Below, one piece after another: positions 8,636-62,954 of a stretch of DNA of 64,000 nucleotides (position 1 is the stretch's first letter; every line of letters begins with the position of its first letter). Both the position numbers and the translations under genes were made by a program. Source of the DNA: an uncultured delta proteobacterium (GTDB taxonomy: Bacteria; Desulfobacterota; Desulfobaccia; Desulfobaccales; 0-14-0-80-60-11); assembly GCA_963812015.1 (NCBI GenBank), contig CAWETI010000003.1:704001-768000 (forward strand). Direction: 5' to 3'. The notes below the pieces were generated by a model that saw only the letters and a list, made by a program, of their open reading frames with translations, was not told the origin of the DNA and made no database searches.

Positions 8636-8832
8636 CTCTTTCCTCTATGACTTCTTCGGACCAGCCTGAGAAAATAGTTAAGGAGCCGGAGACTATCCGA
8701 GCTAAAAAAACATACCATGGCTGGAAACGAATTTTGCAGGCTCTTAAAAAAAAAGCCCAGGATTTTGGATCCGAGGCCAACGTCCAGCCTGGAGTGGCGA
8801 AGCTGATGAAGAGGCTGATTGATTAAAATAAC

Positions 8833-8883
8833 TGGCGCCCCCGGCCCGACTCGAACGGGCGACACATGGATTATGAATCCATT
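8833..8883 (-). repeat. att direct repeat: copy of tRNA-Arg 3' half (left island boundary)
   Basis: 8833-8883 matches 62876-62926 at 50/51 positions; the single mismatch is 8874 T vs 62917 G. Confidence 0.95.
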
Positions 8884-9009
8884 TCAATATAAGTAGACCG
8901 TAAATCCCTCAAGTTCACACAAGTAGAAAAATCCCTTTACAATCAATAGTTATATATGGTATAGAAGGTGTCAGTAGTAGACAGTAATTAAACTAAGTTC
9001 ACTTATTAA

Positions 9010-9030
9010 GGTTATCCCTTGGTTATCCCT
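9010..9030. promoter_or_regulatory. putative integrase arm-type binding sites (left)
   Basis: GGTTATCCCT twice with 11-bp period (9010, 9021); identical tandem at 62789 and 62800. Confidence 0.75.
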
Positions 9031-9045
9031 TGGGCGGAGGCGGTC

Positions 9046-18694: not shown

Positions 18695-18789
18695 CAAGAA
18701 GATCATATATTAACCTCTGACCCAGCCTCGCCCCAGTAACCCCTCAGTCAAAGCGTTAGAACGCCGCAGGAAGCGTGTGACGCTTTTTT
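18695..18789 (+). repeat. cassette-boundary repeat R0 (half palindrome plus 'zeta' arm)
   Basis: AAGAAGATCATATATTAACCTCTGACCC..GAAGCGTGTG..TTTTT; homologous to 33886-34000 and 61996-62090. Confidence 0.8.
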
Positions 18790-19471
18790 AAGGCCTATCT
18801 AAGGGTGGGCCATGGCCATAATTCGGCCGGGGTCAAGTGACCCCACGGACGCGGTTGCGGGTCCCGGACCAGCCGGATTTTTGCTTCAAAATTTTTGGGC
18901 CGTTCCCATCATGGGGGGTGTCTGCTGTTCCTGCCCATGCGAACGAAAAAAGACTCGATCAGTTAGACCTATTTCACTATGCAAACCATATCCGCAACTC
19001 TTTGGAATTTTTGATAAGTCTTGATAGTGGCAAGATATCTGGCTATGACCTGCCTCTCTTCGATCAATTACTCTAAAATAACTTGTGGATTATTTTTTGG
19101 GGGGTAGGTTATTCAGAAGCAAAAATTAGGGATGTCCTAATATAAAATTAAGATTATTTTTGAAATAATTGCGCATAAATTTCTCATGGCCTAAGCTATG
19201 CTCCGCCAGGATCACTGGCTTGACTAAAAAAAGCCGAATTTTCTCACTCAAATTGGTCCAAAAAAAGGGGCAGTTCCAAAAAGGGAGCGGAATCTTGGGC
19301 ACGAGTATGAGATTAAACTGCTTAGATTCATTAATGAAATTTTTTTTCGCCTGAATGCGCCGATCGAAAGCATTTTTGGGGTTAAACCATCAAGGGCCGC
19401 ATATACCGACCTAACACGCCCCGGAGGATACGGTGGCGGGGTCGGCGGGGGTCGGCATGGGGAGGGTTTGA

Positions 19472-20689: not shown

Positions 20690-20706
20690 GAGCAACGTTG
20701 ACCTGC

Positions 20707-20773
20707 CTGCCATAATACCGGATTACTCACTTGTGGCCAACCCAAACTACTCGGGTACGATATGGCGATCATA
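20707..20773 (+). repeat. cassette-boundary repeat R1 (interrupted by an intron fragment)
   Basis: CTGCCATAAT..TTACTCAC, then CGATATGGCGATCATA identical to 26132-26147. Confidence 0.75.
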
Positions 20774-20882
20774 GTACGCCACGAACGCACGTAGAGTGCG
20801 GTGCCTTGCAGGAGATGAGGGTTAGGCCCCTTGGAACCGGTCTGCAGAGACAGGTTCAAACCGCCTTAAGCTGCACTGGTTT
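20774..20882 (+). mobile_element. 5' fragment of a group II intron related to the one at 36025-37872
   Basis: GTACGCCACGAACGCACG...GAGATGAGGG..GGTCTGCAG.GACAGGTT..AAACCGCCTTAAGCTGC aligns with the reverse complement of 37765-37872. Confidence 0.88.
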
Positions 20883-25890: not shown

Positions 25891-26060
25891 AGTCGTTCAA
25901 ATTTGAGGCTTGAGAGGGCACTTTACCAAGGGAATTTCAACTCTGGCGACGCCGGTAGAGGCATGTAATTTTCCGCCTTAAAGACGAACATGTTGCAGTT
26001 GAGCGATATGGCGGGACTCCTATGAAGCCCCCTTTGTTTCGAACCCTCGTCCTGTTCCTG

Positions 26061-26203
26061 AGCATGGCCTGCATCTAATGCCTTAAAGCGGGCCAGCCTT
26101 AAGTCCGGAACCCTGACCGTATCCCTTGTTGCGATATGGCGATCATATCTTCATCTCTCTGGAATTTTTGAGAAGCTTTGCTAGTGGCAAGTTATGTGGC
26201 ACC
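26061..26203 (+). repeat. cassette-boundary repeat R2 (intron-free twin of R3)
   Basis: Near-identical to 35951-36024 joined to 37873-37936; central CGATATGGCGATCATATCT at 26132-26150. Confidence 0.92.
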
Positions 26204-28112: not shown

Positions 28113-28140
28113 GATAATGTCTCCTTGATTCACTCAAACG

Positions 28141-33847: not shown

Positions 33848-34000
33848 CTGCTCTATCTGGCTCCCATATCCCAATATAAAAGTATCAATAAGAAGATCAT
33901 ATATTGACCTCTGACCCAACGTCGCCTTTCTTCTTCTACGCTATGGAGAACCCCTTGGTCGAAGCGTGATCACGCCGTAGAAGCGTGTAGGCGCTTTTTT
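33848..34000 (+). repeat. cassette-boundary repeat R12 (zeta arm)
   Basis: AAGAAGATCATATATTGACCTCTGACCC..GTCGAAGCGT..GAAGCGTGT..TTTTTT, as at 18695 and 62000. Confidence 0.75.
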
Positions 34001-34406
34001 AGAGCCATTGCGGGGGTCTATCCCTCGGCTTATCCCCCCGACAAAAATCGGTTTGAAATTCTCGGTCCTGGGTCCCATCACCCCGGGTGTGTCTTTTGCC
34101 GGGTTCTCCCCGGGAAACAAAAACGGTATTGGCGAAAATTTTGATATGGCATCCAAGGCAGGCATAACGAGTAGGGGGGAGGGAGTCCCACTCTCCGGGT
34201 TTCTGTTCTTCGACTTTCACCCTGGGCAGGAATCCCAGGCACGGGTCCCCCAGGCCAGGGGCGTAGCGGGGGGAGGCAGGGGTAGGCGGCGGCTTCATGG
34301 CCGATGCTATATCGTGAGGAAAAGCCGCTGCCCCCCATGATTTGTGGTTATGCGTTCTTTTCCGGCAGAATGCACTTTTGGTCGTTATTTGTGGTAGAAT
34401 CTTGCT

Positions 34407-34492
34407 CAGTCATGACATGAACCTCCCAGGTTGTGTTGTGGTTAGGGCCGGTACGGGGTGAGTGGGTACACCCTGGCCGGCTTGCTTATTTT
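34407..34492 (+). ncRNA. putative SymR-like antisense RNA (copy 2)
   Basis: TGGTAGAAT -10 at 34392-34400; AGTCATGACATGAACCTCC..GTGGTTAGGGCCGG..CCGGC..TTATTTT. Confidence 0.55.
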
Positions 34493-34637
34493 CTGGTTCG
34501 CTTCAAATACTCTTCGACGTCTGTCCACTGGGGTGGTATGCAGAAGTGCCGGCGGCGCGCGGGGGGGAGTAGTCAGGGTATGGGGTGATGACAGGGGAAC
34601 GCGGGGGGCGCTCCAAGGAGGCTCTGTAACTCTCAAT

Positions 34638-35675: not shown

Positions 35676-36024
35676 GGTTCCAGTTTAATGGAAAAAGGGA
35701 CATAGCCCAACTGCATAGTGGAGGTTAATGGAGAGGTTCCGGTATGCATATTACCATTGCTAAATGGCCCTGAAACGCCCCCAGAAGGCTTGAAGAGCAC
35801 CAACCCTTACTTCTGGCCATTAGTCGGTTGGCTTGCGTTGAAATTTGGGCCGAAAAAAGGACCGTACGTTGCTGTTTTTGACCATCGCCGCCATCGACCT
35901 GAACGCTTCCTATGAGGCTTCCTTTGTTTAGAGCCACTACCCTGCTATTAAGCATGGCCTGCATCTAATGCCTTAAAGCGGGCCAGCCTTAAGTCTGGAA
36001 CCCTGACCGTATCCCTCGTTGCGA

Positions 36025-37872
36025 GTCGAGTAGCGCAGGGGAATCTCACCCCCACGCCCTCACAGATCCGGACGTGAACCTCTCAGCTCATCCGGCTCCT
36101 CTTATCCAGCCGCCGGCCGCACTCCCAGTCGCCAGTGAGCGAATAAATTCGACTCACGCCGGGCAATGCGTCCTAACCAATGGGTTGACTGACGCTGATG
36201 GCCACGCAGCTTCTTAAACTTACGCATGGCCCAACGGGTCAGAGCGCGATTCAGTTGGCGCAAAATCGGGTAAAGTGCAGACTTGTAGTAGCTGCCATAG
36301 TAGTTAATCTAGCCCCGAAGGACTGGATTGAACATCCGGGACAAGTCGTCGAGAGCCTTATCGCTCCTCAGGTGGAGTCGCCAACTACGCATGGTGCGGC
36401 GCATCGTCTTTGCGGCTTTATCGCTCACTGCCGGGCTGAAGCTGATGAAGAACTTGCCCCAGCGATTCTTCGATCTCCGGGGACGAAACGTGAATCCCAG
36501 AAAATCAAACTTCTCGTTGAGGTAGTGGCCTCTCCGATCATCATCCTTGCAATAGACTATCTTGGTCTTTTCAGGATGAAGCTCCAGTTTGCATTGAGCC
36601 AGCCTTCCGGCAATCGCCTTCCTCAATGCCCCAGCTTCCGATTCTGTCTGGCAGTGGACCACCACATCATCGGCATATCTCGCAAAAGGATTCTGTGGAT
36701 AAGTCTTCCGCATCCATTCATCAAAAGCATAGCGCAGGAACAGGTTGGCGAGCAGAGGGCTGATCACCCCGCCTTGCGGCGTGCCCTTCTGCCGGAGCAC
36801 TAAAGTCCCTTCAGCAAGTTGGGCTGGGGCGGTAAGCCACCTTTCGATGTAGAGCAGCATCCATGAACAGTCGGTGTGCTTACGCACCGCCCGCATGAGA
36901 AGGTCATGGTCCAGGTTGTCAAAGAATCCCTTGATATCCAAATCGATCACCCAGTCGTAGCGCCAGCACCTTTTCCGGGTTACTCCAACGGCTTCAATCG
37001 CCGACTTCCCATGTCGATATCCATAGGAGTCTGGATGAAAGCATGGCTCCACCAACGGTTCCAGGTAAATCTTGACTACCATCTGGGCAATCCGATCTAA
37101 TACCGTCGGGATTCCCAAACTTCTCTGGCCGCCACCGGCCTTGGGTATGGTTACCGTACGCACTGGTGGCGGGAAATAGCTCCCCGAGGACATGAGATTC
37201 CAGACCTTGTAAAGGTTGTTCTTCAACCCCTTCTCAAAATCTGCAATCGACTCCGTGTCTACTCCGGCCGCTCCCTGGTTTGCTTTTACCCTTTGAAACG
37301 CCTTCCAGACCACCCATTTTGAAATCTCAAACGGCTTTGCTTTATTCACCGGTTCCTCCCATTTCTGGTTGACCAAGCCATAAAGCTGAATGAGACAACC
37401 CCTTCACTCCATCCCCATTACGGGACTTCTTCGCTACTACGGGTTGTTCCGCCCCTGTGCCCCGCCTCGGTACTCTCACTCTCATGGGTCCTCCACTTGA
37501 GTTTCTCCCTTCACATCGGAGCGACAGGTTCCCACGTTCCACGCAAGAGCCTGAGTCAAGATCATGCCACCTTCATGCCGGACACCACCCAAGCAATAAG
37601 CAGGCTCCCCTTGGGCTTATACTGGGACCACCATACCCCCCAGTTTTGACGTCGTCCTTATGATTTCGACACGTCATCAGTGGTTCGCTTGCGCTCATCT
37701 TCTTGACCCATACCTGACGCAGTTGCTCTGCGCCTTTTCCTTAACGCTCACCACCCTGACTCTTAACCAGCGCAGCTTAAGGCGGTTTGGAACCTGTCCC
37801 TGCAGACCGATTCCGAGGGGCCTACCCTCATCTCTTGCGCAACACCGCACTCAGCGTGCGTTCGTGGCGCAC
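36025..37872 (-). mobile_element. group II intron (RmInt1-like, class D-type), 1848 nt, inserted in repeat R3
   Basis: 5' GTGCG at 37872 and 3' ..CTACTCGAC at 36025. Domain V GAGCCGGATGAGCTGAGAGGTTCACGTCCGGATC. Removing the intron restores the sequence of R2. Confidence 0.95.
36102..37376 (-). pseudogene. ltrA: group II intron RT/maturase with premature TAG (36309-36311) in domain X
   Basis: GAAGVD, LGIPTV.DR, GTPQGG, RYADD. LRG-TAG-INYYG replaces conserved RGWINYY; the frame continues to TAA at 36102-36104. No endonuclease domain. Confidence 0.88.
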
Positions 37873-38074
37873 TATGGCGATCATATCTTCATCTCTCTGG
37901 AATTTTTGAGAAGCTTTGCTAGTGGCAAGCTAGTGGCCTCTTCCTAAATACTTCTTAGAGAATGCCCTTTGGAAAAAATTATGTGCAAATTTACAGAGTA
38001 TATGGAGAATCTTAATCTTAAGAAAAGCTTTAAGAATAATTACCCTATATATTGAACTGTAAAGGAGAAACACC

Positions 38075-38660: not shown

Positions 38661-38670
38661 GTGTCAGTTA

Positions 38671-38783
38671 CTGCTATTTATGTGCCCATCAAGGAGACTT
38701 AGAAGGTTTTCGCTATACAGATCATATCTTCAACTATTAAGCATTTCGGAGAATGGGCTGATAGTGGCAAGTTATGCGGCACC
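38671..38783 (+). repeat. cassette-boundary repeat R4
   Basis: CTGCTAT.., GCTATACAGATCATATCTTCA, ..TAGTGGCAAGTTATGCGGCACC (right arm as in R2). Confidence 0.8.
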
Positions 38784-51100: not shown

Positions 51101-51158
51101 CTGCTATGATTCGACACTTATCACGAAGCCAAAACCTTTCCATATCCAGTCCATATCT
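51101..51158 (+). repeat. cassette-boundary repeat R5 (alpha left arm)
   Basis: CTGCTATGATTCGACACTTATCACGAAGCCAAAACC..CCATATCCAGTCCATATCT. Confidence 0.85.
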
Positions 51159-51256
51159 ATACTTCTTGGCCTGAAAAACTCCTGCCGTTCCCGCCGGTAA
51201 CCTGGGGTTCCCCTATCACCGACATCTTAAATCTTCCTCTCCACAGATGTCCGTGC

Positions 51257-51324
51257 CAGATATGAAGATCATATCTGCAATTTCTCCGACGCATTCGATA
51301 ATTGCTGGTCCTGGCAAGTTATCA
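51257..51324 (+). repeat. cassette-boundary repeat R6 (perfect palindrome plus gamma arm)
   Basis: CAGATATG-aagat-CATATCTG, CAATTTCTCCGACGCATTCGATAATTGC..GGCAAGTTATC. Confidence 0.85.
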
Positions 51325-51622
51325 ACTGTTTCCATTTTTAATTCCCGCCTGAAAAAAAAAATGGCCATCGCCGATCCTGTCTGAAGCGCACCTTTGACTA
51401 AGGAAATGTCAAGCAGAAAAGGACCGCGGCCGTTCCCGTAACGCTAGGCAATCGCTCTAAGGGAAATTTCTGTAGAACTTTATCAATTTAAACCCACCTG
51501 GTATATCCTTAGCGAATGGCCGGACCCCGTTGCCACACCTTTCGAGGTGCTTATATTAATAGAAATTGGATTAGTTCAACAAGCGGAGTGGGGTGGCCAT
51601 GCGACTCGGGGCGAGATCCTCA

Positions 51623-52351
51623 ATGAAACCATACCTTGGAGTGTTGTTTTTCCTGTGCTATCCGGGGATATTCTTTTCCCCAGGCTTTGCACTTTGCGAC
51701 GGCACTCAGTCTGATCTGGACCACAAATTAGCCGCGGGGGAGATCATTGTCTCTTCTAAAGAAGTTCCTGGAAAATCCCTCAAATGCGCCGAGATGGTGG
51801 GAGTTGTTGATGCCCCACCGGAGATCGTTTGGCAGGTGATCACTGATGTTAATAATGCTAAGAATTTCATGCCACGAATTCGTAATAGTATGGCCGTTGC
51901 TCCGGAGAAAATTCCCGTGATTTTGCAAAGTAGAGCGACCCGAGCTGAAGAGGTGGAGCAATTACTCGGCCCTATCCCAGCAGACCCGGATAGTTATCGC
52001 ATTCCTGGGGGAACATATACCGTGTATTCATATAGCAATGTTGATTTACCGTGGCCTCTTAATAACAGATGGCATATCACCAAAGGGTTAAGGGATGAGA
52101 CTCGGGCTGCCCAACATTGCTATCACAACTCGTGGTCTCTCGTAACCGGTAACATCCGAGAAAATGCTGGTGAATGGATTTTGGAACCATTTGGCTCTGC
52201 TAAAACAAAGGCTACCTACAGGCTTTGTACCGATCCCGGTGGCGTCATTCCACAGTTCCTTGTCACGCAAGGTACTGATACAACCATGCCCCAAATCATT
52301 AAAGCGGTCAGGGAACGGGCTGCTAAGCTTTTGGGACAGCCATTATCTTGA
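51623..52351 (+). CDS. SRPBCC/START-domain exported protein
   Basis: VDAPPEIVWQVITD...FMP, LPWPL.NRW, GEWILEP, DPGG.IP. Confidence 0.8.
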   Translation: MKPYLGVLFFLCYPGIFFSPGFALCDGTQSDLDHKLAAGEIIVSSKEVPGKSLKCAEMVGVVDAPPEIVWQVITDVNNAKNFMPRIRNSMAVAPEKIPVILQSRATRAEEVEQLLGPIPADPDSYRIPGGTYTVYSYSNVDLPWPLNNRWHITKGLRDETRAAQHCYHNSWSLVTGNIRENAGEWILEPFGSAKTKATYRLCTDPGGVIPQFLVTQGTDTTMPQIIKAVRERAAKLLGQPLS

Positions 52352-52414
52352 AATTCTAAAAGGCTCAATAAGTTAAAAGGAACGGTATTGAGGTACTGAA
52401 GAAGCTCAAGGCAT

Positions 52415-52520
52415 CTGCTATGATCCAAAAATTATCACGAAGCCCAAAACCTCACTTATCCAGATCATATCTGCAATTTCCCCGACGCATTCGATAATTG
52501 CTGCTCCCTGGCAAGCTATA
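52415..52520 (+). repeat. cassette-boundary repeat R7 (complete alpha + gamma)
   Basis: CTGCTATGATCC..TTATCACGAAGCCCAAAACC..CAGATCATATCTGCAATTTC..GACGCATTCGATAATTGC..TGGCAAG. Confidence 0.9.
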
Positions 52521-52575
52521 TTGAATTCCAATATCTAATAAATCTTTTGGGTCCTCCTTAGCGGATCCTGCCTGC

Positions 52576-53220
52576 TTAATCTTCCCGCTTACCCCATCTC
52601 GGCAAAAACCGGGGCACCCGGCGGCAATACTCCTCGTAGGCCGCGCCGTAGCGCTCCAGGAGTTCCTTCTCCTCTAACCGGGCAATGATGCAAATTCCCG
52701 GCAACCAGAGGGCTGCCACCACGTAGGCGGCCGGGTAGTTGGCAATCAGGGCATAGCCCCAGATGAGAAGGACGATCTGGACATAGCGGGGGTGACGCAT
52801 CCGGGTGTAAATGCCGCCGGTAATTAACCCGATCGGATACTTATTCGGGGCCAATTCGGGCAGCCCCAGCATTGTGCTCAGGGCCAGGTACCGGTGTAAC
52901 AACACCCACAGCCAGATGGCGGCCACTTCAGCCAAGACCCCCAAGGCTATCAGGAAGTAGTTCGTCCCGAACTCCACGGCCAGCAGGCTCTTCCGGACCT
53001 GAAAAAGCCCCCCTCCTCCCATGCCCATGACCGTCCATACCAGGCCGTAGGTTAAGGCCGGGCCCAGCCGCCGCCAAAAGTGGATAAAAGGGTGAATTAC
53101 CAGCCAATGCAGCAGCGTCGGTGGCAATGTGACCACCAGGACCAAGGCGATATAATAACGGATCGCGTCCACTTTTTTCTTCTCATCAAAAGGTGCGGGG
53201 TCACTTCCAGCCCACCTCAT
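52576..53220 (-). CDS. isoprenylcysteine carboxyl methyltransferase/PEMT-family membrane protein
   Basis: LITGGIY..MRHPRY, EEKEL.ERYG..YEEY.RRVPRFLP; start uncertain. Confidence 0.88.
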   Translation of the reverse strand: MRWAGSDPAPFDEKKKVDAIRYYIALVLVVTLPPTLLHWLVIHPFIHFWRRLGPALTYGLVWTVMGMGGGGLFQVRKSLLAVEFGTNYFLIALGVLAEVAAIWLWVLLHRYLALSTMLGLPELAPNKYPIGLITGGIYTRMRHPRYVQIVLLIWGYALIANYPAAYVVAALWLPGICIIARLEEKELLERYGAAYEEYCRRVPRFLPRWGKRED

Positions 53221-53223
53221 TAT

Positions 53224-53289
53224 TTATATCTACATCATATCTGGAATTTTTCCCACACAAGCGATAATTCCCGATGCTGGCAAGTTATC
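53224..53289 (+). repeat. cassette-boundary repeat R8 (delta arm)
   Basis: ATCATATCTGGAATTTTTCCCAC..CGATAATT..CTGGCAAGTTATC. Confidence 0.8.
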
Positions 53290-53321
53290 AAAAGATAGGT
53301 GATTTTCTTTCACCAGATTTA

Positions 53322-56300
53322 CTAGTGCTGGGTATGGGACTCTATCATTAGAAAGATGGTCACCCGGGTACCCTTTTGCGGCTCGCTCTCGATGGTGATT
53401 TCTCCCTGATGCGCTTCGATGATCTTCTGGGAGATGGCCAGGCCCAACCCGCTGCCTTTGGGCTTGGAAGAAAAGAACGGCTGGAAGATCTTTTCTAAAA
53501 TCTCGGGAGGGATTCCCTTCCCCGTGTCGAGTATTTGCACGAATACCCGATCTGCATGGCGACCGGTGGCAACCGTCAAGGTCCCCCCAGTGTCCATGGC
53601 CTCGATGCCATTCTTGGCGATATTCAAGATCACCTGGCGCAGATGCCCCGGGTCAAATTGAATCTCCGGGAGATCGGGGTCCAGTTTCAATACCAGTTCG
53701 AGATTACTTTCCCGGAGACTCGGTTCCAGCCGCTGGCAGGTTTCCTGGATCAAGGCATTGAGATCCCCCGGGCGCTTTTGGGGCTCGGAAAATTTGGCAT
53801 AGCTACCGACCTCAACGAGGAAGTCTTCTAACCGCTTGACTTCATCCACGATGATCTGGAGCTTTTCCAGGTTTTTTTGCGGATCTTGAGCAACATCTTT
53901 CAGCACCTGGCGGGCAAACCCCCCGATGAGCATCAGGGGGTTCTTGATTTCGTGGCTGATATGGGCCGCCATCTTGCCCAGGACGGCCAGGCGCTCACTC
54001 CGCAAGAGTTCCTCCTCCATGCGTTTCCGTTCCCGCAGGTCTTTAAAATGGCCGATCATGCCGATCTCCCGATCGTTTTCGTAAAGCACCCGGGCAGAAA
54101 GCCAGATGGGCACCGGAGTGCCATTCTTAGGTATCATCCAGGTTTCATAGTTCTCTAAAATATCCACTCCACCGTAATCAGGACTATGGATTTTAGCATC
54201 AATTTTCTGCAGTTGACCCGGCGCATAGAGATCTTTGACATTCATTTTGCCGAGGACTTCTTCCGGTTCATAGCCAAGGATTTTAGCCGCGGTTTCATTA
54301 AAGGTGCGAATGGTGCCTTCCACATCGTTGGCCACAATGCCATCCATGCAGGTATGAATGAGGAGCTTCTGGAAGTAAATGCCCCGCTCCACCTCGGCGG
54401 TTAATTCCTCTTCGGCCCGCTGGCGCTTGATCTGCCACCACATGCCGTTCATTAATAAAGTCAGCTGATGGACATCCGATTCATCATATTCCTCTTCCTT
54501 GTTGCCCACGCCGGCCACCGCCACGATGCGGTCACCATCAAATACCGGAATATTCAGGTGACGCCGGACTTCCACATGGCCCTCAGGATAGCCTTTCTTA
54601 AAAGGGTTGGGTGCGGCATAGTCATTGGTAATAATGGGCCGCCGGTGGCGAACGGCTTCACCCCAGAGCCCGGTGGTCTCCATTGGATAGACAATGGGTT
54701 TATCAATGATAGCGCATTGGTCCATGGCAGTCTTAGACCAGGAGTGCATCGTAAGTACTGTTTCGTCCTCGTTCATGAAAGCCAGGTAACCGATCTTGCT
54801 TTTGGTGAGCCGGACTCCTTCTTCCAAGGCGAAATCGGTAATCTCTTGCAGCGTGGCCTTGGTCATCTGGCTGAGTTGCCAGACCGCCTCGAGGCGGGAT
54901 TCATCCAGGCGCAGCGCCTCCTCCATGTTGGCAGTGCGCACTGCCAATCCCAAATGCCCGGCCAGCGATTGAAAGAACCGAATGTGTTCCTTGGTAAAAA
55001 ACCCCTTCTGACTGCTGGCCGCGGTCAATACCCCCAGGGTCAGGGTTTCTGCAGTGATGGGGGCCAATACTAGGGAATTCAAAGCTTCTTCTTCCACCAG
55101 TCCCTGGAGGCGATCAGCCACTGCGGTGGAATCCGGCACCGAAATTACCTGGGAGGTCGACAAGCATTCCCCCAGAAGGGAGGCGGAATCGGGCTTTCCC
55201 ACCTGTGCCCGAGCCTCAGGCGGAAGGCCTCGGAAGGCTTTGATATGCAGGAAGCCATCTTCGTCCAAAAGCCGCACGGCACATTTTTCTACGCCTAATT
55301 TCTCCACCAGCACCCCCAGCACTCCATCCAGGATTTCCGGAAAATAGAGGGTGGAGGCCAGGCGGCGGGCCGCTTCGTAGAGCACCGAGAGTTCACTTAC
55401 CCGTATCTTTAATTGCTGTTCGCTTTCCTCCAGGGAGCTGGAGATCCGGCCGAAAAGGTCAAAAACGTCCTCCATCTTGGAGCCCAGTGAGGAGAGGTAG
55501 CCTTCAACTACTACCTGGGCCGCCGCAGGTCCGATGGAACCGGCAATGGTGCGTTCAATAAAATCCGCCAACTGGAGCTTTTCCCGGTCACCCCACTCGG
55601 CTTCGGGAATCGTCACCTCCCGGAGAAAGGCTCGTCGCGCCTGGGCGGCCTTCCGGGGGCCGATGATCTTCTCCATAAATTCCGTCAACTGCTCCAGGCT
55701 TGGTAAATACGTTAAGCGCTTCTCAATAGGCCTTCCCCGTTCACGTTCAAACACCCCAACAAACCGTCGTGCCTGTTCCTCTTCCAACGGACTGGGCACC
55801 GTGAGCAAGGAGACGGTGACAAAGGTGCCGGTATTGAAAAACAAGGACCAGAAAAAGGCATTGGAGAGTCGATCCAGGCCGGCAAGCCCTAAGAAAGCGT
55901 TGGGCTTAAGAAAAGCCAGAGCGAAGGGGCCCTCCGATAAAATACTGACTGAAAACCAACCCGCCTCGATCAGATAAGGAAAGACCAGGGTGTAGGCCCA
56001 AAGAAGAAAACCCGAGGCCAACCCCGCCATTGCCCCCCACCTTGTGGCGTCCCTCCAGTACAAGGCCCCTATCATGGCCGGCGCCAACTGCATCACCCCG
56101 CAAAAGGCGATCAGTCCTATGTCCACCAGCATGACAGTAGGAAATACTAAGTGATAGCCAAAGTATCCCAAAAGGATCAGAAAGAGGATGCCGGCCCGCT
56201 TGATGGTCAAAAGATGGGGGGTGATACGTTCTTGCAGTTTTAGCCGAGTGGTCAGGGGCATCACCAGACTATTGAGGAGCATGGTGGTGACGGAGATGGA

Positions 56301-57362
56301 GGCCACCGCCACCATGGCGGTGGAGGCCGACAGTCCCCCCATAAAGACCAGCAGAGCGAGATAGGGATGTCCGGTTTGCAAGGGAATGCGCAGGACAAAG
56401 GTATCGGCCTGTTCCCGGGGCAAGCCTATCAACAGTCCCCCGAAAGCGATGGGCATGACAAACAGGCTAATCAACAATAGATACACCGGAAAGAGCCAGA
56501 CTGCCGTCAGGATATGCCGTTCATCGGTATTTTCCACTACCGCCATGTGGAACATCCGGGGAAGAAAGTGGATGGCCCCCATAGCCAGGAGAGTCAGCAC
56601 CATAAGAAGGGTATAATTGTTGTGAGGCCCGGTGTTCACCAGGAGAAGCTGTTGAAATTCGGGGCTCTGCCGGATACGCGCGAAGATTTCTCCCCAGCCC
56701 GGGAAGAGGCCAAACGTCACCAGGATACCCAGGCTAAAAAAAGCCAGGAGTTCGATCAGGGACCCGAACACCACTACTCCCACTAACCCTTCGTGACGCT
56801 CGGTGGGGTCCAGATGGCGAGCCCCAAACAGAATACCGAACATGGCCAGAAGCAAGGCCACATAAAAGGCGGTGTCTTGATAAACCGGGATGGTGCCGGG
56901 ATGACAAACTTCTTTACATACTAGGATATTAAACGTATCGGAAATTGACTTGAGCTGTAGGCCGATATAGGGGGTTATGGCCAGGAGCACCCCCACGCTA
57001 GCGAGGACCCCCAGAAAGGCCCCTTTGCCATAGCGTAGCGTCAGGAAATCTGACATAGTGGTCAGGTTGTTTTCCTTGCAGATGCGCAGGAGCTTGCGCA
57101 AACCGAACCACCAGGAAAAAGCGATGATGGAGGGACCCAGGTAGATGGTGAGAAAGGTCACGCCTGAGGTGGCCGCCTTGCCGACGCTGCCGAAAAAAGT
57201 CCAGGCGGTGCAATAAACCGATAGAGAAAGGGCATAGATATAGGGATTGGCAATAATGCTCTTGCCCAGGGCCCGTTGCCGGTCCCCATAATAGGCGATG
57301 GCAAAGAGCAGCAAGAGATAGCTAAAGGCGGTTACTGCTACCAGGCCGTTACTGAGCCTCAT
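53322..57362 (-). CDS. SLC5 (Na+/solute symporter)-fused sensor histidine kinase (CbrA/CrbS-like) with GAF, GAF and PAS domains
   Basis: YALSL.VYCTAWTFFGSVG, PYIGLQLK, FLPRMFH, GSIG.A.A, HEIKNPL, NGIEAM, DTGKGI, GSGLGL. Confidence 0.92.
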   Translation of the reverse strand: MRLSNGLVAVTAFSYLLLLFAIAYYGDRQRALGKSIIANPYIYALSLSVYCTAWTFFGSVGKAATSGVTFLTIYLGPSIIAFSWWFGLRKLLRICKENNLTTMSDFLTLRYGKGAFLGVLASVGVLLAITPYIGLQLKSISDTFNILVCKEVCHPGTIPVYQDTAFYVALLLAMFGILFGARHLDPTERHEGLVGVVVFGSLIELLAFFSLGILVTFGLFPGWGEIFARIRQSPEFQQLLLVNTGPHNNYTLLMVLTLLAMGAIHFLPRMFHMAVVENTDERHILTAVWLFPVYLLLISLFVMPIAFGGLLIGLPREQADTFVLRIPLQTGHPYLALLVFMGGLSASTAMVAVASISVTTMLLNSLVMPLTTRLKLQERITPHLLTIKRAGILFLILLGYFGYHLVFPTVMLVDIGLIAFCGVMQLAPAMIGALYWRDATRWGAMAGLASGFLLWAYTLVFPYLIEAGWFSVSILSEGPFALAFLKPNAFLGLAGLDRLSNAFFWSLFFNTGTFVTVSLLTVPSPLEEEQARRFVGVFERERGRPIEKRLTYLPSLEQLTEFMEKIIGPRKAAQARRAFLREVTIPEAEWGDREKLQLADFIERTIAGSIGPAAAQVVVEGYLSSLGSKMEDVFDLFGRISSSLEESEQQLKIRVSELSVLYEAARRLASTLYFPEILDGVLGVLVEKLGVEKCAVRLLDEDGFLHIKAFRGLPPEARAQVGKPDSASLLGECLSTSQVISVPDSTAVADRLQGLVEEEALNSLVLAPITAETLTLGVLTAASSQKGFFTKEHIRFFQSLAGHLGLAVRTANMEEALRLDESRLEAVWQLSQMTKATLQEITDFALEEGVRLTKSKIGYLAFMNEDETVLTMHSWSKTAMDQCAIIDKPIVYPMETTGLWGEAVRHRRPIITNDYAAPNPFKKGYPEGHVEVRRHLNIPVFDGDRIVAVAGVGNKEEEYDESDVHQLTLLMNGMWWQIKRQRAEEELTAEVERGIYFQKLLIHTCMDGIVANDVEGTIRTFNETAAKILGYEPEEVLGKMNVKDLYAPGQLQKIDAKIHSPDYGGVDILENYETWMIPKNGTPVPIWLSARVLYENDREIGMIGHFKDLRERKRMEEELLRSERLAVLGKMAAHISHEIKNPLMLIGGFARQVLKDVAQDPQKNLEKLQIIVDEVKRLEDFLVEVGSYAKFSEPQKRPGDLNALIQETCQRLEPSLRESNLELVLKLDPDLPEIQFDPGHLRQVILNIAKNGIEAMDTGGTLTVATGRHADRVFVQILDTGKGIPPEILEKIFQPFFSSKPKGSGLGLAISQKIIEAHQGEITIESEPQKGTRVTIFLMIESHTQH

Positions 57363-57592
57363 TCCTTTGATTCCTCCTGGGCCGGCGGTTCATGGGCAGT
57401 GAGCCGGCGACTCAATGCATAGAGCCCAGTGATGGCCAAGATCCAAACCCCAAACAGGTAGAAAACCAGAAGTGGATTCCCTGCCACTAAGGTGTCGCGA
57501 TTAAAAATTTGCAACAAAGGATAGTTTAAGAGGAGAAAATCTAGAATCCCCAGGAGGGCCAAGAGCTTTTCTCTTTTCGTCGTAGGGAGCAT
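57359..57592 (-). CDS. small 2-TM protein overlapping the kinase start
   Basis: LLNYPLLQIFN...G.PLLVFYLFGVW; ATGA coupling to the kinase. Confidence 0.75.
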   Translation of the reverse strand: MLPTTKREKLLALLGILDFLLLNYPLLQIFNRDTLVAGNPLLVFYLFGVWILAITGLYALSRRLTAHEPPAQEESKE

Positions 57593-57894
57593 TATTTTAT
57601 CTCCTGCTCTCACCTGCTCAGGTCAATTAATTTCATCCGGCCCCCGAAAGCTATCTATTAGATAAGGGCCGGGTGAGGTCCGCACCGATCTCCCCAAGAC
57701 TGTTACTCTTTAAAGCAAACGGGGACAGTACGTAACGCAATTAAGGTGAAGTCTGGAAAATCTCATTTTACCGGTGCTTCAGACCTGCTGGTTATATCCT
57801 TCCCTTCATTTTGGTTGGAACAGACCAGAGATTTTTTGTTCCCACTTCGGGCAAGGGGCCTCTCACATTTGTTTGATGACTGCATCGATAGAGA

Positions 57895-58464
57895 TCAAAA
57901 ATCTTCCTCCTCCTTCAAGAAGTTCCGCATCATCAATGCCACATCATAAGTTTTTCCTTTCATGTCCCTAAAGTAGTCTTCGAAGTTGGCTCTGACCTTA
58001 AAGCCTCTGGACTGAAAGGCTTTGATGACGTGCTTCAATTCGGTAACCACCTCCACTTTCAGCCAATGGAGCTTTTCTTGTGAGGCAAGGTCAATCAATT
58101 CATTTAAAATCAACGAGCCTAACCCCAAACCCTGGAAAGGTCTGGCCAAGAAGATTTGCTGGATCTCGCCGACATTTAGGGCGGCATTTTGACCCCGATA
58201 GAGATTGAGGGTGGCAACTGGCTGTTTAGTTTCCATATCTTCCGCCACTAAGGCCATTATTCTGTGAGAATTTTCCGGGTTCATCCAATAATCGACCACC
58301 TTCGAGTTCTTAACATCTTCTTTACAAAACTGGACGTCTTCTTGGGGAGCTTGCTGGAAAAGCTTGATGAGGCCATCCCGATCTCGTCCATTGAGGAACC
58401 GGATCACCACCGTTTTCCCGTTGGTCAAGGTGGCGAACTTGCGGTAAGCACAATAATTTTGCAT
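57895..58464 (-). CDS. GNAT family acetyltransferase
   Basis: LTNGKTVVIR, FQGLGLGS, AFQSRGF. Confidence 0.85.
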   Translation of the reverse strand: MQNYCAYRKFATLTNGKTVVIRFLNGRDRDGLIKLFQQAPQEDVQFCKEDVKNSKVVDYWMNPENSHRIMALVAEDMETKQPVATLNLYRGQNAALNVGEIQQIFLARPFQGLGLGSLILNELIDLASQEKLHWLKVEVVTELKHVIKAFQSRGFKVRANFEDYFRDMKGKTYDVALMMRNFLKEEEDF

Positions 58465-59083
58465 GGCCCACCCCCTTACTCAAGAAGTTTATAGCCTTAC
58501 TTTTTTATAGGTTTTTCCTTCTTGGTGGCGATTATCGGATAGGCAGCAAACGCAGCCGTATCCTCTCAATTTGCAGTTTAGGCGCTTAATGCATGACCAG
58601 TGAAAAATCTAAAAAGCGGGGAGCCCCTCTCGGGAGGAACGAATTAAAGCTTGGAGGATGAAGTAGGAAGATGAGAAAGGCAACCCGGGTATGTCAGCCT
58701 TTTTTTCCTTCATTAACTCACCTCCCTCACCTCAGAAAATAATGGGAGAGAAATTTACTTATAATTTAAGTATTCTTTAAACTTTTGTCAATGAGCCTGG
58801 GGCGCGGGTATTCAGTGTCACTATCAAAAAGCTGCAAGGCTGCCTTGAGCCAATACCGCTAAGCCATTCCGGGCGTCCGATGGTGGGCGGGGCTTACTCG
58901 AATTGAGCATGACGATAAAAATCCAGCCCTAAAGGGGGGATAGGCCTTCCATATGGACGGCAGAATCCCCCCTTAACCTCATATCTATCTACAGTATCAG
59001 CTCGGATCCTCCGGACTGTAGTCCAGTGGCGCAAGAGGCCCACACCAAACCCGGGAGTTGGTTCCTGATGTAATTCTTATGGT

Positions 59084-59137
59084 TATACACCGGAGCAGGT
59101 CATTGGGAAGCTGCGGGAAGCCGAAGTGGCGTTATCT
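59084..59137 (+). mobile_element. tiny IS3-family orfA remnant
   Basis: YTPEQVIGKLREAEVALS resembles an IS3-family OrfA N-terminus; it stops at repeat R9. Confidence 0.55.
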
Positions 59138-59198
59138 GCTATGATCCGACACTTATCACGGAGCCAAAAAGCTCGCATATAGAACATATCTTTAAATT
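59136..59198 (+). repeat. cassette-boundary repeat R9 (alpha arm)
   Basis: CTGCTATGATCCGACACTTATCACGGAGCCAAAA..GCATATAGAACATATCT. Confidence 0.85.
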
Positions 59199-59273
59199 TT
59201 CGCCACCCCCCCAAGCCCAGAGTCGCCCATTAATTTCGTCCTTGCACTCGTCAGCTTATGTCTCCCTGCCCCG

Positions 59274-59819
59274 TCACTTCGGGTTCGCCGCCAGGTAGTC
59301 GTTGATGAACTGGTCGACTTGGTCCCCCACTAAATTTCGGATTTGAGTTATGTTGGTTATCTTGCATGTTCCTGCGTATCCCGTCGTATGCCATACCACA
59401 CCAGGGATTTTAAAACCACTTTCGATGGCAACTTTCTTCTTTAATTGCACCTTGATTGAATACGCACAGAAAGTAGAGCCAGGCTTGGTGACGGCATTTA
59501 CGTTCACATAAAGGTACGGCATCCCCGGCGTCCCTTGGCTTTCCTTCTCCGTGAGAACCCTGGCTCCGGCCTTGCGTAGTCTCATCTCGACGTCCGTCTG
59601 TATCTGGTCTCTGATCAAGCCCAAGCGCTCGATTTCTGGCTTAAGGTTCTCGACCAAAACGTGCACCCCTTTCAGCCCGACAAGAGCCTTTTGCTCATCA
59701 GTAAGGGCATGAGAGACAGCCGGAAGCAGCAAAAGTACCACCACCAGGGCCATTACCCTCTTTTCCAGGCTCAGGATGCATTTTTTGTCGGTACTTATGG
59801 TAGAATTTTGTTCAGCCAT
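59274..59819 (-). CDS. hypothetical exported protein
   Basis: GGAGG RBS before MAEQNST; internal signal-like MALVVVLLLLPAVSHA; C-terminal VDQFINDYLAANPK. Confidence 0.7.
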   Translation of the reverse strand: MAEQNSTISTDKKCILSLEKRVMALVVVLLLLPAVSHALTDEQKALVGLKGVHVLVENLKPEIERLGLIRDQIQTDVEMRLRKAGARVLTEKESQGTPGMPYLYVNVNAVTKPGSTFCAYSIKVQLKKKVAIESGFKIPGVVWHTTGYAGTCKITNITQIRNLVGDQVDQFINDYLAANPK

Positions 59820-59899
59820 GACATGAACCTCCCCGACAGGTTTGGTTGTGGTTAGGGCCGGTCCGGTGATGCCCATGCTCCAGGCCGGCCTGCTTATTT
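59813..59899 (+). ncRNA. putative SymR-like antisense RNA (copy 3)
   Basis: TGGTAGAAT -10 at 59798-59806; homologous to 34407-34492. Confidence 0.55.
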
Positions 59900-60070
59900 C
59901 CTGGTTCGCTTCAAATACTCTTCCACGTCTGCCCACCTGATACGCACGGCTCGCCCCAGCTTATGATGAGGCAATACACCTTCACGAACCCGCCGCCATA
60001 TAGTGTCTTTTGATAGGCCGAGCTTTTCGGCTATTTCCTTGACCGAAAAAAACTCTCGTTCTCCCGTCAT
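59894..60070 (-). CDS. excisionase-family HTH protein (58 aa, below the ORF-track cutoff)
   Basis: Own translation MTGEREFFSVKEIAEKLGLSKDTIWRRVREGVLPHHKLGRAVRIRWADVEEYLKRTRK. Confidence 0.85.
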   Translation of the reverse strand: MTGEREFFSVKEIAEKLGLSKDTIWRRVREGVLPHHKLGRAVRIRWADVEEYLKRTRK

Positions 60071-60447
60071 TCCATTACCCCCAAACCATTCGAGTGATTA
60101 TTTTAATTATAAAATACTTTGATATGCATGTAAGTGCAGCTGTATGCAATATTAGGGATAAAATATATAGGATTTTGCAAATTGCATCGGCTCTATCCTT
60201 TGCCCCGCCATGCCCAGGCTGCCCATTTATTGCCGCGACTGTTATCGCTGGCGGATGGCTATCCTACCCCTCATCGGATTGCTTAATGAAGGACTTTTTC
60301 CGGGTAGTCGATGGTCTTGTTCCAAACCGATATGGATGGATGATCTGCGCGCCAAAAATGATCCAAAGATTATGCTGAAGTAGTGTCACGAAGGGAGGCA
60401 AAGAGATCTGGCGTAGCTGATATGTGATGGCTATAAACATTTACTAG

Positions 60448-60550
60448 CTGCTATGATCCGACACTTATCACAGGGTCCAAAACCTTCCATATTCAGACGA
60501 TATCTGGAATTTTTACCACTTAGATGATAAGAGATTAGAATGGAAGCTCG
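60448..60550 (+). repeat. cassette-boundary repeat R10 (alpha + delta)
   Basis: CTGCTATGATCCGACACTTATCAC..AAAACCTTCCATATTCAGACGATATCTGGAATTTTTACCAC..TGATAA. Confidence 0.85.
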
Positions 60551-60583
60551 TGAAGAGGTACCTCCTGGATGGAGCAAGGCGGC

Positions 60584-61860: not shown

Positions 61861-61953
61861 CCCGAGTTTTCAGAATGATGGCCTGCCTGTTGAGGCGCGG
61901 AAATGAAATCGGCGCTTAACCTTCAGCAGCGGCGTTATCCGCATGAAAGATAA

Positions 61954-62090
61954 CTGCTATCTCTCCGCACCTCTCCTCCCGGCATTTGGCTTGCTGATAT
62001 GCTTACCATATTGACCGCTGACCAAACCTCGCCCCAGTAACCCCTCAGTCGAAGCGTTAGAACGCCACAGGAAGCGTGTGGCGGTTTTTT
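61954..62090 (+). repeat. cassette-boundary repeat R11 (zeta arm)
   Basis: CTGCTAT.., GATATG-cttac-CATATT, then GACCGCTGACC..CCTCGCCCCAGTAACCCCTCAGTCGAAGCGTTAGAACGCC.CAGGAAGCGTGTG, nearly identical to 18712-18789. Confidence 0.85.
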
Positions 62091-62788
62091 AGGGGGTATT
62101 TGTGGGCCGGTCATAGACGGGTTTTTAAGTTAAAATTTTTGGGGTTTTGAAAGGAAGGGGGGGTACTTGTCAAAATTGTCAAGAGGGAAAAGGGGGGAAA
62201 TTTGTGAGAGGGTCATTGCATCACAGGGGGGGTATGGGACCCGTCCCGGGGTTTGCCTTTGGGGCCGAAAAACTGATGAGGGTAGGGGCGGCACCGGAGC
62301 ACGCAGGCCGGGTGACCGTGCTGGCCGCGGTGGGGTTGCTTGCGCACCACAGGGGCAGGTGGTGGACGGTCACACCGGGCCAGGCGCATTGATAACCCCT
62401 TACAGCATCGGCAAGGATTTATCTGCCTGGGTAGAAAAGCTCTTCGAGACGAGTATCCCGGCAGAAACCCTTAAAACCCGGGCGGCAAGGATTCAAAAGC
62501 AAATCGGTTCAAATGAACCGACTGCCCCAACCTCCTGCAATACCTCAGAAATTCCAGAAAAACCGCAAAGTCAACCAGTTCGGGGTAAGTCGGGTAAGTT
62601 TGAAAAGGGCACAGCCCCGGGACCCGGCCGGCCACGGAGGCGTACCGCCCCGAAACCAACCCCACCACCTCCAGAGGCGGCGGCAGGAGCAGCCCCCAAA
62701 GGCGAGCGATTCTCATTTTCCCCTGCATGATTCCCAGGCACACCTTGCAACCATGAGCACCCCTCAGTATCGGCAAAATCTGCACTCT

Positions 62789-62859: not shown

Positions 62860-62875
62860 ATTTATTGCTTATAAT

Positions 62876-62954
62876 TGGCGCCCCCGGCCCGACTCGAACG
62901 GGCGACACATGGATTAGGAATCCATTGCTCTATCCATAACTGAGCTACGGGGGC
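62876..62954 (-). tRNA. tRNA-Arg (anticodon CCT)
   Basis: Minus strand GCCCCCG TA GCTC..GAGC A ATGGA-TTCCTAA-TCCAT..GCCCG TTCGAGT CGGGC CGGGGGC G CCA. Confidence 0.96.

What the first reader, a model, noticed from the sequence alone, without database searches (positions are those of the whole stretch)
51101..60550. Left and right arms of the repeats are reassorted at palindrome B, a crossover footprint
Left arm alpha (CTGCTATGAT..TTATCACG.AGCC.AAAACC) is joined to right arm gamma at 52415 but to right arm delta at 60448. Gamma also occurs at 51257 and delta at 53224, each behind a different left arm. Right arm epsilon (..TAGTGGCAAGTTATG.GGCACC) follows different left arms at 26132 and 38711, and arm zeta follows different left flanks at 18695, 33886 and 61996. 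Homology switches within the N5-7 spacer of B. That is what repeated strand exchange at a tyrosine-recombinase-type core with flanking accessory sites would produce (inference). The GATA..TATC half-sites also resemble serine-resolvase res half-sites, so the enzyme class is open.
Basis: partly seen in the sequence, partly recalled or inferred. Interest (0 to 1): 0.8.

Follow-up and report, generated by a model that had tools for sequence, protein, structure and literature searches.

The report
Recombinase repeat modules swapped at palindrome
The repeats are stripped-down copies and half-copies of a small mobile element that carries its own Xer-like recombinase, and their parts really are re-joined at the short palindrome, which looks like that enzyme's crossover site, although strand exchange there is not yet shown.

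Summary
Palindrome B (TATnCAGATCATATC) is a genome-wide module junction: 93 matches against 4 in a reversed-sequence control. About 96 junctions join left modules (alpha, beta, others) to right modules (R, beta, zeta).

Beta is that gene's deletion remnant.

Recent duplicates break at B:
- A 4.1-kb block of 94% identity ends exactly at B's right edge.
- Most of the 21 near-identical R pairs, by my reading of the printed alignments, have unrelated left flanks that start at or near B.
- Left-arm types swap at B1 in recombinase-bearing copies.

B is not the only junction. The alpha start, the R end and a point about 25 nt left of B2 are junctions too. One cargo gene keeps 91% identity in a relative while both of its arms differ. 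No excision product was seen, and this genome's recombinase copy is broken.

An attC-like fold is not supported. Site-specific exchange at B is therefore the best reading, not a proven one. Two earlier notes of this scan described the same family on other DNA of this genome.

The parts
8828..8890 (.). Copy of the 3' part of tRNA-Arg: one border of a 54-kb island that holds all the window's sites
   Evidence: 63-nt direct repeat, 92% identical to 62871-62933 (family D8). The tRNA itself is at 62876-62954.
9019..10215 (+). Island integrase, 398 aa. It is a different tyrosine recombinase from the one tied to the repeats.
   Evidence: Pfam Phage_integrase, E 1e-25.
18696..18799 (+). B + zeta right module
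   Evidence: Alignment A1; zeta nhmmer hit, E 7e-31.
18978..19039 (+). B + R, epsilon-like, behind a unique left flank
   Evidence: nhmmer R hit, E 1e-13.
20700..20881 (-). Degenerate inverted B site (B about 20760-20773). A group II intron 5' fragment (20775-20881, + strand) abuts it.
   Evidence: by inspection; 20770-20881 is 87.6% identical to 37876-37765.
26018..26196 (+). Intact site of the epsilon subfamily: left arm E 26018-26134, B 26135-26149, R 26150-26196
   Evidence: D4, D5; E 5e-14. R is 100% identical over the R body to C2:464258 and to 37873.
33890..34009 (+). B + zeta right module
   Evidence: E 3e-26.
35908..36024 (+). Left arm E of a site split by the intron
   Evidence: 86% identical to 26018-26134.
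36025..37872 (-). Group II intron inserted exactly at the left edge of B
   Evidence: Rfam RF00029 at 36025-36100 and RF01999 at 37712-37829. RVT_1 + GIIM open reading frame at 36309-37376.
37873..37932 (+). B + R(epsilon), the right half of the split site
   Evidence: 98% identical to 26135-26194 (D4).
38670..38776 (+). alpha2 left arm + B (38714-38728) + R
   Evidence: The same left arm is seen at C2:118798, C2:786235 and C2:1103022.
51101..51323 (+). Long form: alpha 51101-51142, B1 51143-51157, beta 51158-51260, B2 51261-51275, R(gamma) 51276-51323
   Evidence: Beta holds a ribosome-binding site and start codon on the minus strand, matching the recombinase 5' end.
52415..52519 (+). Short form: alpha 52415-52456, B 52457-52471, R(gamma) 52472-52519
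53227..53289 (+). B + R(delta), directly behind the start codon of the minus-strand PEMT-like gene 52576-53220
59136..59190 (+). alpha + shortened B, followed by unrelated DNA (A|x)
59894..60070 (-). 58-aa HTH_17 (excisionase-type) gene lying between two sites
   Evidence: Pfam HTH_17, E 1.7e-14.
60448..60552 (+). Short form: alpha 60448-60489, B 60490-60504, R(delta) with a decayed end 60505-60552
61950..62100 (+). alpha-like arm (CTGCTATCTC...) + B 61998-62011 + zeta, ending in a terminator-like hairpin at 62063-62083
   Evidence: 93% identical to C2:310937-311058.
62876..62954 (-). tRNA-Arg(CCT), the island's other border
   Evidence: ARAGORN; Rfam tRNA.

Best explanation
The repeats are sites and gene-less derivatives of a roughly 1.05-kb mobile element of Thermodesulfobacteriota. 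Its layout is alpha - B1 - terminator hairpin - XerA-like tyrosine recombinase (antisense) - ribosome-binding site - B2 - R.

B is the enzyme's dif-like core: arms AGATAT and ATATCT around a 7-nt spacer ending in GATC. Alpha and R carry mirror-image boxes, TGCTA..TTATC on the left and GATAA..TGGCA on the right, and probably act as accessory arms.

Exchange at B between copies, and between B1 and B2 of one copy, joins any left module to any right module. This yields alpha|R, alpha|beta, beta|R, x|R, alpha|x and x|zeta junctions, and arrays of sites that face the same way.

Shown: the anatomy, the link to the recombinase, and the position of the breakpoints. Inferred: that the recombinase makes them, and that alpha and R are accessory arms.
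For: 1. Alpha and R flank a tyrosine recombinase gene in G000 (a pseudogene) and in relatives. Homology among the 7 full element copies (G016 is disrupted) runs from B1 to the R end. 53 related loci were recovered, and every alpha, R and beta hit beside them is co-oriented with the element.
2. The enzyme is a simple Xer-like recombinase. NCBIfam XerA gives 104 bits, PDB 4a8e (XerC-like) gives 1.6e-14, and Pfam Phage_integrase matches.
3. B is strongly over-represented: 93 hits against 4 in the control.
4. The left and right signals switch inside B.
5. A 4.1-kb, 93.8% identical duplication ends at the last base of B, with R on one side and beta on the other.
6. Of 21 R pairs at >= 85% identity among 66 R sites, most (about 13 by my reading of the printed alignments) have left flanks near random identity. 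Homology begins between -14 and +5 of B's start.
7. In autonomous copies the alpha and alpha-G left arms swap at B1's left edge. All four combinations of left-arm and R type occur.
8. R nearest neighbours do not predict alpha (rank 0.61, p 0.91), while the two R halves predict each other (rank 0.278, p 0.003; n = 20).
9. Sites are locally co-oriented: 12 of 12 detected by profile in the window, and 7 of 11 clusters of 3 or more elements are uniform.
Against: - Other junctions exist that a crossover at B cannot make. The alpha start, the R end, and the 5'UTR about 25-30 nt left of B2 are all junctions.
- The SRPBCC cargo (51312-52421) is 91% identical in G008 but sits between a different R subtype and a different alpha-like arm.
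- B spacers differ between copies (CCAGATC, GAAGATC, GGCGATC). Classical two-strand exchange tolerates that poorly.
- G000 holds only a broken recombinase copy.
- No circle or excision joint was seen; only contigs were available.
- No clean filled-versus-empty orthologous pair was found.
- The Mantel test is uninformative because its own controls are weak.
Confidence: 0.5

Rival explanations
1. This is transposon decay plus homology-driven exchange. Alpha and R are simply the two ends of an IS-like element, and B1 and B2 are internal subterminal repeats, perhaps binding sites or an operator. The mosaic then arises from internal deletions, truncations, slippage between the 15-20-bp B repeats, and ectopic gene conversion whose tracts stop where homology stops. 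The recombinase does not cross over at B.
For: - Beta is an internal-deletion remnant.
- The short form equals the long form minus the B1-B2 interval.
- Junctions also fall at the alpha start and the R end, where homology between copies ends.
- Arms around one cargo differ between G000 and G008.
- One relative carries a higBA-like cargo inside the element without a second B at the inner junction.
- Earlier scan notes read the family this way.
Against: - The 4.1-kb duplication that ends at B has unrelated R subtypes and flanks beyond it, so it is not a simple B1-B2 deletion.
- The conserved stretches at B and at the R end are 10-20 bp, which is short for RecA-type conversion.
- No terminal inverted repeat longer than 5 nt and no target duplication was seen.
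- Local co-orientation is not expected from random insertion.
Confidence: 0.28
2. These are integron-like folded single-strand sites. The whole alpha-B-R folds like an attC hairpin, with the outer boxes TGCTA/TGGCA and the inner boxes TTATC/GATAA paired and B at the tip. Crossover takes place at the base of the hairpin, so cargo genes are cassettes bounded by the R end and the alpha start.
For: - The boxes are arranged as mirror images.
- Cargo is bounded by the R end and the alpha start in G000 versus G008.
- 61 of 81 elements are co-oriented with the leading strand as judged by GC skew.
- A group II intron has inserted at the B hairpin twice.
Against: - The consensus fold has 10 pairs, none with covariation, at -1.45 kcal/mol.
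- Single-strand DNA folds of 12 strands give z-scores from -1.19 to +0.85; none is below -2.
- The recombinase lacks the integron-integrase insertion. TIGR02249 gives 44 bits against a cut-off of 265, over profile positions 35-179 only.
- The leading-strand bias is borderline at cluster level: 19 of 27, p 0.05.
- R directly followed by alpha is rare: 3 hits in 83 genomes.
Confidence: 0.12
3. This is a regulon signal. B is a palindromic operator and R a promoter, copied upstream of many genes, with no recombination involved.
For: - Three kinds of leftward genes (the recombinase, a DUF72 gene and the PEMT-like gene) start right beside B-R.
- A promoter-like match, TTGATA-16-AATTAT, lies on the bottom strand of R at 51325-51298 and at 53291-53264.
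Against: - Promoter-like matches are not enriched: 12 found against 9.0 +/- 2.8 expected, and they fall in only 2 of 7 sites scanned.
- Flanking genes lie in both orientations.
- This reading does not explain the breakpoints of duplications, the alpha arm or the link to the recombinase.
Confidence: 0.07

Closest known systems
Xer/dif site-specific recombination, including Acinetobacter pdif (dif) modules
   Same: - The enzyme is a simple two-domain tyrosine recombinase.
- The core has short inverted arms around a 6-8-bp spacer. That architecture is described in PMC2958812, of which I read passages.
- Accessory genes are bounded by such sites and appear shuffled. For the dif-module papers PMC13141974 and PMC6449649 I saw only the search listing and the start of each abstract.
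   Different: - There are dozens of sites per chromosome instead of one dif.
- Sites are co-oriented, whereas, as I recall, pdif sites alternate in orientation.
- The sites are about 110 bp with conserved arms.
- The recombinase gene itself sits between two cores.
- NCBIfam XerA scores 104 bits against a cut-off of 220.
Integrons (IntI, attC cassettes, clusters of attC sites without an integrase)
   Same: - Structured repeats lie co-oriented between unrelated accessory genes.
- The enzyme is a tyrosine recombinase.
- A group II intron uses the site as its target. That group IIC-attC introns do this in integrons is recalled, not checked here.
   Different: - There is no integron-integrase insertion.
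- No attC-like fold or covariation was found.
- The main junction lies in the middle of the site rather than at its 3' end.
Insertion sequences with MITE and cargo-carrying derivatives
   Same: - There is one autonomous form plus many internally deleted, gene-less copies.
- The gene needs a slippery A8 run to be read in frame, as in many IS transposase genes. That comparison is recalled.
- This was the verdict of the earlier scan notes.
   Different: - The enzyme is a tyrosine recombinase, not a DDE or HUH transposase.
- No terminal inverted repeats beyond 5 nt and no target duplication were seen.
- Copies are locally co-oriented, and modules are exchanged at fixed internal points.
REP/BIME mosaics and REPIN-RAYT systems
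   Same: Palindrome-bearing intergenic repeats are built from interchangeable modules, with a single enzyme gene flanked by the repeats. This comparison is recalled.
   Different: RAYT is an HUH enzyme and REPs are about 35-nt hairpins. Here the enzyme is Xer-like, and the full site does not fold better than shuffled sequence.

Membership tests
Integron (IntI/attC) | Integrase carrying the IntI-specific additional domain | tested here: not met
   The open reading frame is 249-262 aa. TIGR02249 gives 44.4 bits against a cut-off of 265, covering profile positions 35-179 only; NF011946 gives 31 bits against 435.
Integron (IntI/attC) | attC folds as an imperfect hairpin with paired R and L boxes | tested here: not met
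   The consensus fold has 10 pairs, none covarying, at -1.45 kcal/mol. None of 12 single strands has z < -2.
Integron (IntI/attC) | Array of co-oriented cassettes headed by intI, attI and Pc | tested here: inconclusive
   Sites are co-oriented, but no recombinase of this family lies in the window. The genome's only copy is a pseudogene elsewhere.
Xer/dif | Simple tyrosine recombinase (core-binding and catalytic domains) with the catalytic residues | tested here: met
   Pfam Phage_integrase at residues 94-232. XerA, XerC and XerD models all match, all below their cut-offs. The motifs ARGGMR, HDLRRH, LRH and TQRY are read directly from the translation.
Xer/dif | Core of two inverted arms with a 6-8-bp spacer | tested here: met
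   At 51257-51277 the sequence is AGATATGA-AGA-TCATATCT. The arms are shorter than the 11 bp given in PMC2958812.
Xer/dif | A single site near the replication terminus, used to resolve chromosome dimers | tested here: not met
   93 B matches are spread over two large contigs.
pdif modules | Modules bounded by sites in alternating orientation and acted on by the host XerC/D | tested here: not met
   Sites are co-oriented within clusters, and the element has its own recombinase. The defining feature itself is recalled.
IS with MITEs | An autonomous copy whose ends are shared with the short copies | tested here: met
   Alpha and R flank the recombinase gene in G000, G014, G015 and G016. R alone does so in G010, G006 and G033.
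IS with MITEs | Terminal inverted repeats and target-site duplication | tested here: not met
   Only TGCTA and TGGCA, 5 nt each, are mirrored. The flanks show no constant duplication (by inspection).
Group II intron (the insertion at 36025-37872) | Ribozyme domains plus a reverse transcriptase-maturase gene | tested here: met
   RF01999 at 112.7 bits and RF00029 at 56.2 bits; RVT_1 at E 9.8e-41. The open reading frame looks split.

The most novel reading that the evidence does not exclude
This is a gene-shuffling system analogous to integrons but built differently. A XerA-like simple tyrosine recombinase, itself carried as a cassette between two dif-like cores, recombines roughly 110-bp alpha-B-R sites in the middle of the site. 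In doing so it assembles and reshuffles co-oriented arrays of accessory genes inside the genomic islands of sulfate-reducer relatives.
Probability: 0.25. Interest if true: 0.85.

Novelty: new variant of a known kind. Interest (0 to 1): 0.62.

Why it matters
If the recombinase does cut and re-join at B, this is a widespread way of moving and recombining accessory genes that I did not find described. 53 related loci were found in metagenome-assembled genomes labelled as several Thermodesulfobacteriota orders. The mechanism would be distinct from integrons and from Acinetobacter dif modules.

It also comes with a clean test system: a 15-nt core, two arms, and one small enzyme with a built-in frameshift control.

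Even under the plainer reading, the element combines a tyrosine recombinase with MITE-like copies. Three full-text searches turned up no description of such an element. The sites mark the borders of nearly every duplicated block near them, so they shape how these genomes vary.

Tried and rejected
- **Sigma-54 promoter reading of TGGCAAG..** Rejected by inspection because the spacing is wrong.
- **Mantel test of alpha against R distances.** r = -0.05, but the within-module controls were also weak, so it is uninformative.
- **Public reads.** No RNA holder was listed. All four runs laid were contigs. The joints and loose ends at 51158, 51260-51267, 51319, 52415 and 59130-59180 are other copies of the modules, not excision products.
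- **Search for empty orthologous sites.** Four attempts found flanks that are not syntenic across the genus. G008 has a short form where G000 has the recombinase copy, behind a shared 1.8-kb left flank, but the right flanks are unrelated.
- **R directly followed by alpha, as an empty cassette junction.** 3 hits in 83 genomes.
- **Lone B sites without arms.** 25 extra matches, several of which are weak R copies, against 4 in the control. A platform with many bare B cores is not supported.
- **Promoter scan.** Not enriched.
- **Serine recombinase.** 2 genes in the genome, neither at a site.
- **Sequence comparison of B with archaeal dif.** Not possible, because the sequences are in figures and supplements that are not held.

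Full report
**What is in the window.** The window is G000:C3:704001-768000 of a 3.96-Mb, 58% G+C genome. All the repeats lie inside a 54-kb island.
- The island is bordered by a 63-nt direct repeat, 8828-8890 and 62871-62933, which is the 3' part of tRNA-Arg(CCT) at 62876-62954.
- It carries its own integrase at 9019-10215 and DUF3854/DUF927 and helicase genes.

GATCATATCT with up to one mismatch occurs 10 times, always on the + strand, against 2.72 expected.

**One family, several modules.** Profiles built from the window copies find the following in the genome:
- 69 R copies at E <= 0.02.
- 31 alpha copies at E <= 0.05. Alpha is 42 nt: CTGCTATGATCC..CTTATCAC..CCAAAAAC..CCA, followed by B.
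- 18 copies at E <= 0.01 of a 103-nt module, beta, which lies between two Bs.
- 9 zeta copies.

The 15-nt B pattern gives 93 matches against 4 in reversed sequence. Across the 96 junctions listed, the regrouping gives these combinations:

| Junction | Count |
|---|---|
| alpha\|R | 11 |
| alpha\|beta | 10 |
| beta\|R | 17, plus 6 more that keep only beta's right end |
| other\|R | 32 |
| alpha\|other | 8 |
| other\|beta | 4 |
| other\|zeta | 6 |

The remaining 2 junctions fall in two single-member groups (beta|other and beta-end|beta).

In the window:
- 51101-51323 is a long form, alpha-B1-beta-B2-R.
- 52415-52519 and 60448-60552 are short forms, alpha-B-R.
- 53227, 18978, 26135, 37873 and 38714 are R sites with other left partners.
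- 59136 is alpha-B followed by unrelated DNA.

**The autonomous form.** A lead from earlier notes of this scan was tested here.
- At G000:C2:302.4-303.5 kb, alpha-B and R flank an antisense tyrosine recombinase gene. It is broken into three frames.
- Copies with a 262-aa open frame occur in six related genomes. In the 41 genomes searched, 13 had a match at E <= 1e-10.
- The eight copies were aligned. G016 is disrupted, but among the other seven homology runs from B1 to the end of R and stops there.
- The protein is a simple Xer-like recombinase. NCBIfam XerA gives 104 bits against a cut-off of 220. The XerC, XerD and integron-integrase models score weaker. PDB 4a8e gives 1.6e-14, and Pfam Phage_integrase matches.
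- Beta's right end matches the gene's 5' leader: a ribosome-binding site and then the start codon. Beta is therefore an internal-deletion remnant.
- A wider scan found 53 loci in MAGs labelled Desulfobaccales, Syntrophobacterales, Desulfobacterales and Desulfobulbaceae.
- Every alpha, R and beta hit within 4 kb of those genes is co-oriented with the element.

**Are the arms reassorted at B?** Several lines say yes.
- *Switch map.* With R held fixed, the nucleotide signal that separates alpha-linked from beta-linked sites is strong from -12 to -2 and at B positions 3-4, then vanishes. With alpha held fixed, the signal that separates R from beta starts at positions 15-16. The switch is therefore confined to B positions 5-14 (groups of 11, 17 and 10).
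- *A recent duplication.* A 4.1-kb, 93.8% identical block (C2:1630707-1634800 against C3:1000704-1004798) ends at the last base of B. R follows in one copy and beta in the other, and the R subtypes beyond are unrelated.
- *Near-identical R pairs.* Among 66 R sites, 21 pairs have R bodies at >= 85% identity. By my reading of the printed alignments, about 13 of these have left flanks at near-random identity. Homology begins between -14 and +5 of B's start.
- *Autonomous copies.* Two left-arm types, alpha and a G-rich type, replace each other at B1's left edge. All four combinations with two R types occur.
- *Nearest neighbours.* In 20 elements, the nearest neighbour in R is no closer than random in alpha (mean rank 0.61, p 0.91). 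The two halves of R do predict each other (0.278, p 0.003). The alpha-internal control is weak (0.425, p 0.23), so only one direction of this test carries weight. A Mantel test was uninformative.

**B is not the only junction.**
- For paralogous blocks of >= 300 bp and >= 80% identity around the 96 junctions, 13 end and 11 start in or near a site, and none runs through one. Their ends cluster in three zones: the alpha start (-46 to -33; six of the eight left-block ends there are 100% identical copies, at least one an IS3-family element), B (+10 to +16), and the R end (+47 to +67).
- The SRPBCC cargo between two window sites (51312-52421) is 91% identical in G008. There it lies between an R of another subtype and a different alpha-like arm, so the junctions are the R end and the alpha start.
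- R types in autonomous copies change about 25-30 nt left of B2, just after the ribosome-binding site.
- A crossover at B cannot make these joints.

**Rivals tested.**
- *attC-like fold.* Not supported. The consensus structure has 10 invariant pairs at -1.45 kcal/mol. Twelve single strands fold no better than shuffles, with z from -1.19 to +0.85. The mirror-image order of boxes (TGCTA, TTATC, B, GATAA, TGGCA) is nonetheless real.
- *Orientation.* It follows the leading strand in 61 of 81 elements. At cluster level this is 19 of 27, p 0.05.
- *Promoter signal.* A promoter-like match lies on R's bottom strand at 2 of 7 sites scanned, with no enrichment.
- *Serine recombinases.* Two in the genome, neither at a site.

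**What could not be shown.**
- No excision circle or scar was seen. Only contigs were available, and their joints are other copies of the family.
- Four searches found no clean filled-versus-empty pair.
- The archaeal dif sequences of PMC2958812 are in figures and supplements that I could not see. Only the architecture, 11-bp arms and a 6-bp spacer, was compared.
- PMC8138268 (passages read) places short two-domain recombinases in dimer resolution, integrons and non-conjugative mobile elements.
- Three literature searches returned no description of an element like this one. That is not proof that none exists.

**Verdict.** The enzyme class is tyrosine, and B is the most likely core. The mosaic, however, also reflects deletion derivatives and at least two other junction zones, and catalysis at B remains an inference.

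Noticed in passing
window 8828-62954: A 54-kb integrative island in tRNA-Arg(CCT). It is bordered by a 63-nt direct repeat and has an integrase, a DUF3854/DUF927 primase-like gene and a helicase at one end. Its cargo includes a kdp operon, katG and a photolyase.
   Followed up: partly
window 36025-37872 (-) and 20775-20881 (+): A group II intron is inserted exactly at B's left edge, antisense to the site. A second intron 5' fragment abuts an inverted, decayed B. B therefore appears to serve as an intron homing target. The RT-maturase open reading frame looks split (36309-37376 and 36102-36263).
   Followed up: partly
L016-L054 (recombinase 5' ends), L004/L001 in G000: In 19 of 21 close copies, the first 20 or so codons are one base out of frame with the rest at a conserved A8 run. 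Two copies are in frame: one has A7, and the other has A8 with one C fewer before the run. This points to programmed slippage or frameshifting that controls the recombinase. MAGs from several different studies and assemblies show the same run.
   Followed up: partly
L095:933-1131 (G000:C3:1961132-1961330): A different repeat of about 200 nt lies just beyond an R end. It has many copies in G000, and 15 of the 17 other genomes of the genus had a match to this query, which also includes flanking sequence.
   Followed up: no
G000:C3:1000617-1000703, C3:1477042-1476950 and others: A further module of about 90 nt (TAGAAACTTTTGTATCC...TTGACTTGA...) follows the R end at several sites, including beside two recombinase-bearing copies (L021, L052). 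It contains a sigma-70-like TTGACT-17-TAAAAC.
   Followed up: no
window 59274-60070 (-) and 34356-34528: An HTH_17 excisionase-type gene and a downstream protein of about 180 aa with a hydrophobic N-terminal stretch lie between two sites. An 81% identical fragment of their junction lies at 34356-34528.
   Followed up: partly
window 51160-51228 (-): Beta holds a 22-codon open reading frame behind a good ribosome-binding site (MSVIGEPQVTGGNGRSFSGQEV). Similar peptides can be read in other beta copies. It may be only the relic of the recombinase start.
   Followed up: partly
G000:C2:1179648-1180919, C3:449840-451560: Identical IS copies abut or truncate the alpha start at several sites; at least one is an IS3-family element. 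The site edges seem to attract other mobile elements.
   Followed up: partly
window 27093-28133 (-): The kdpC gene is 346 aa, with two KdpC matches. That is about twice the usual length as I recall it, so it may be a duplication or a fusion.
   Followed up: no
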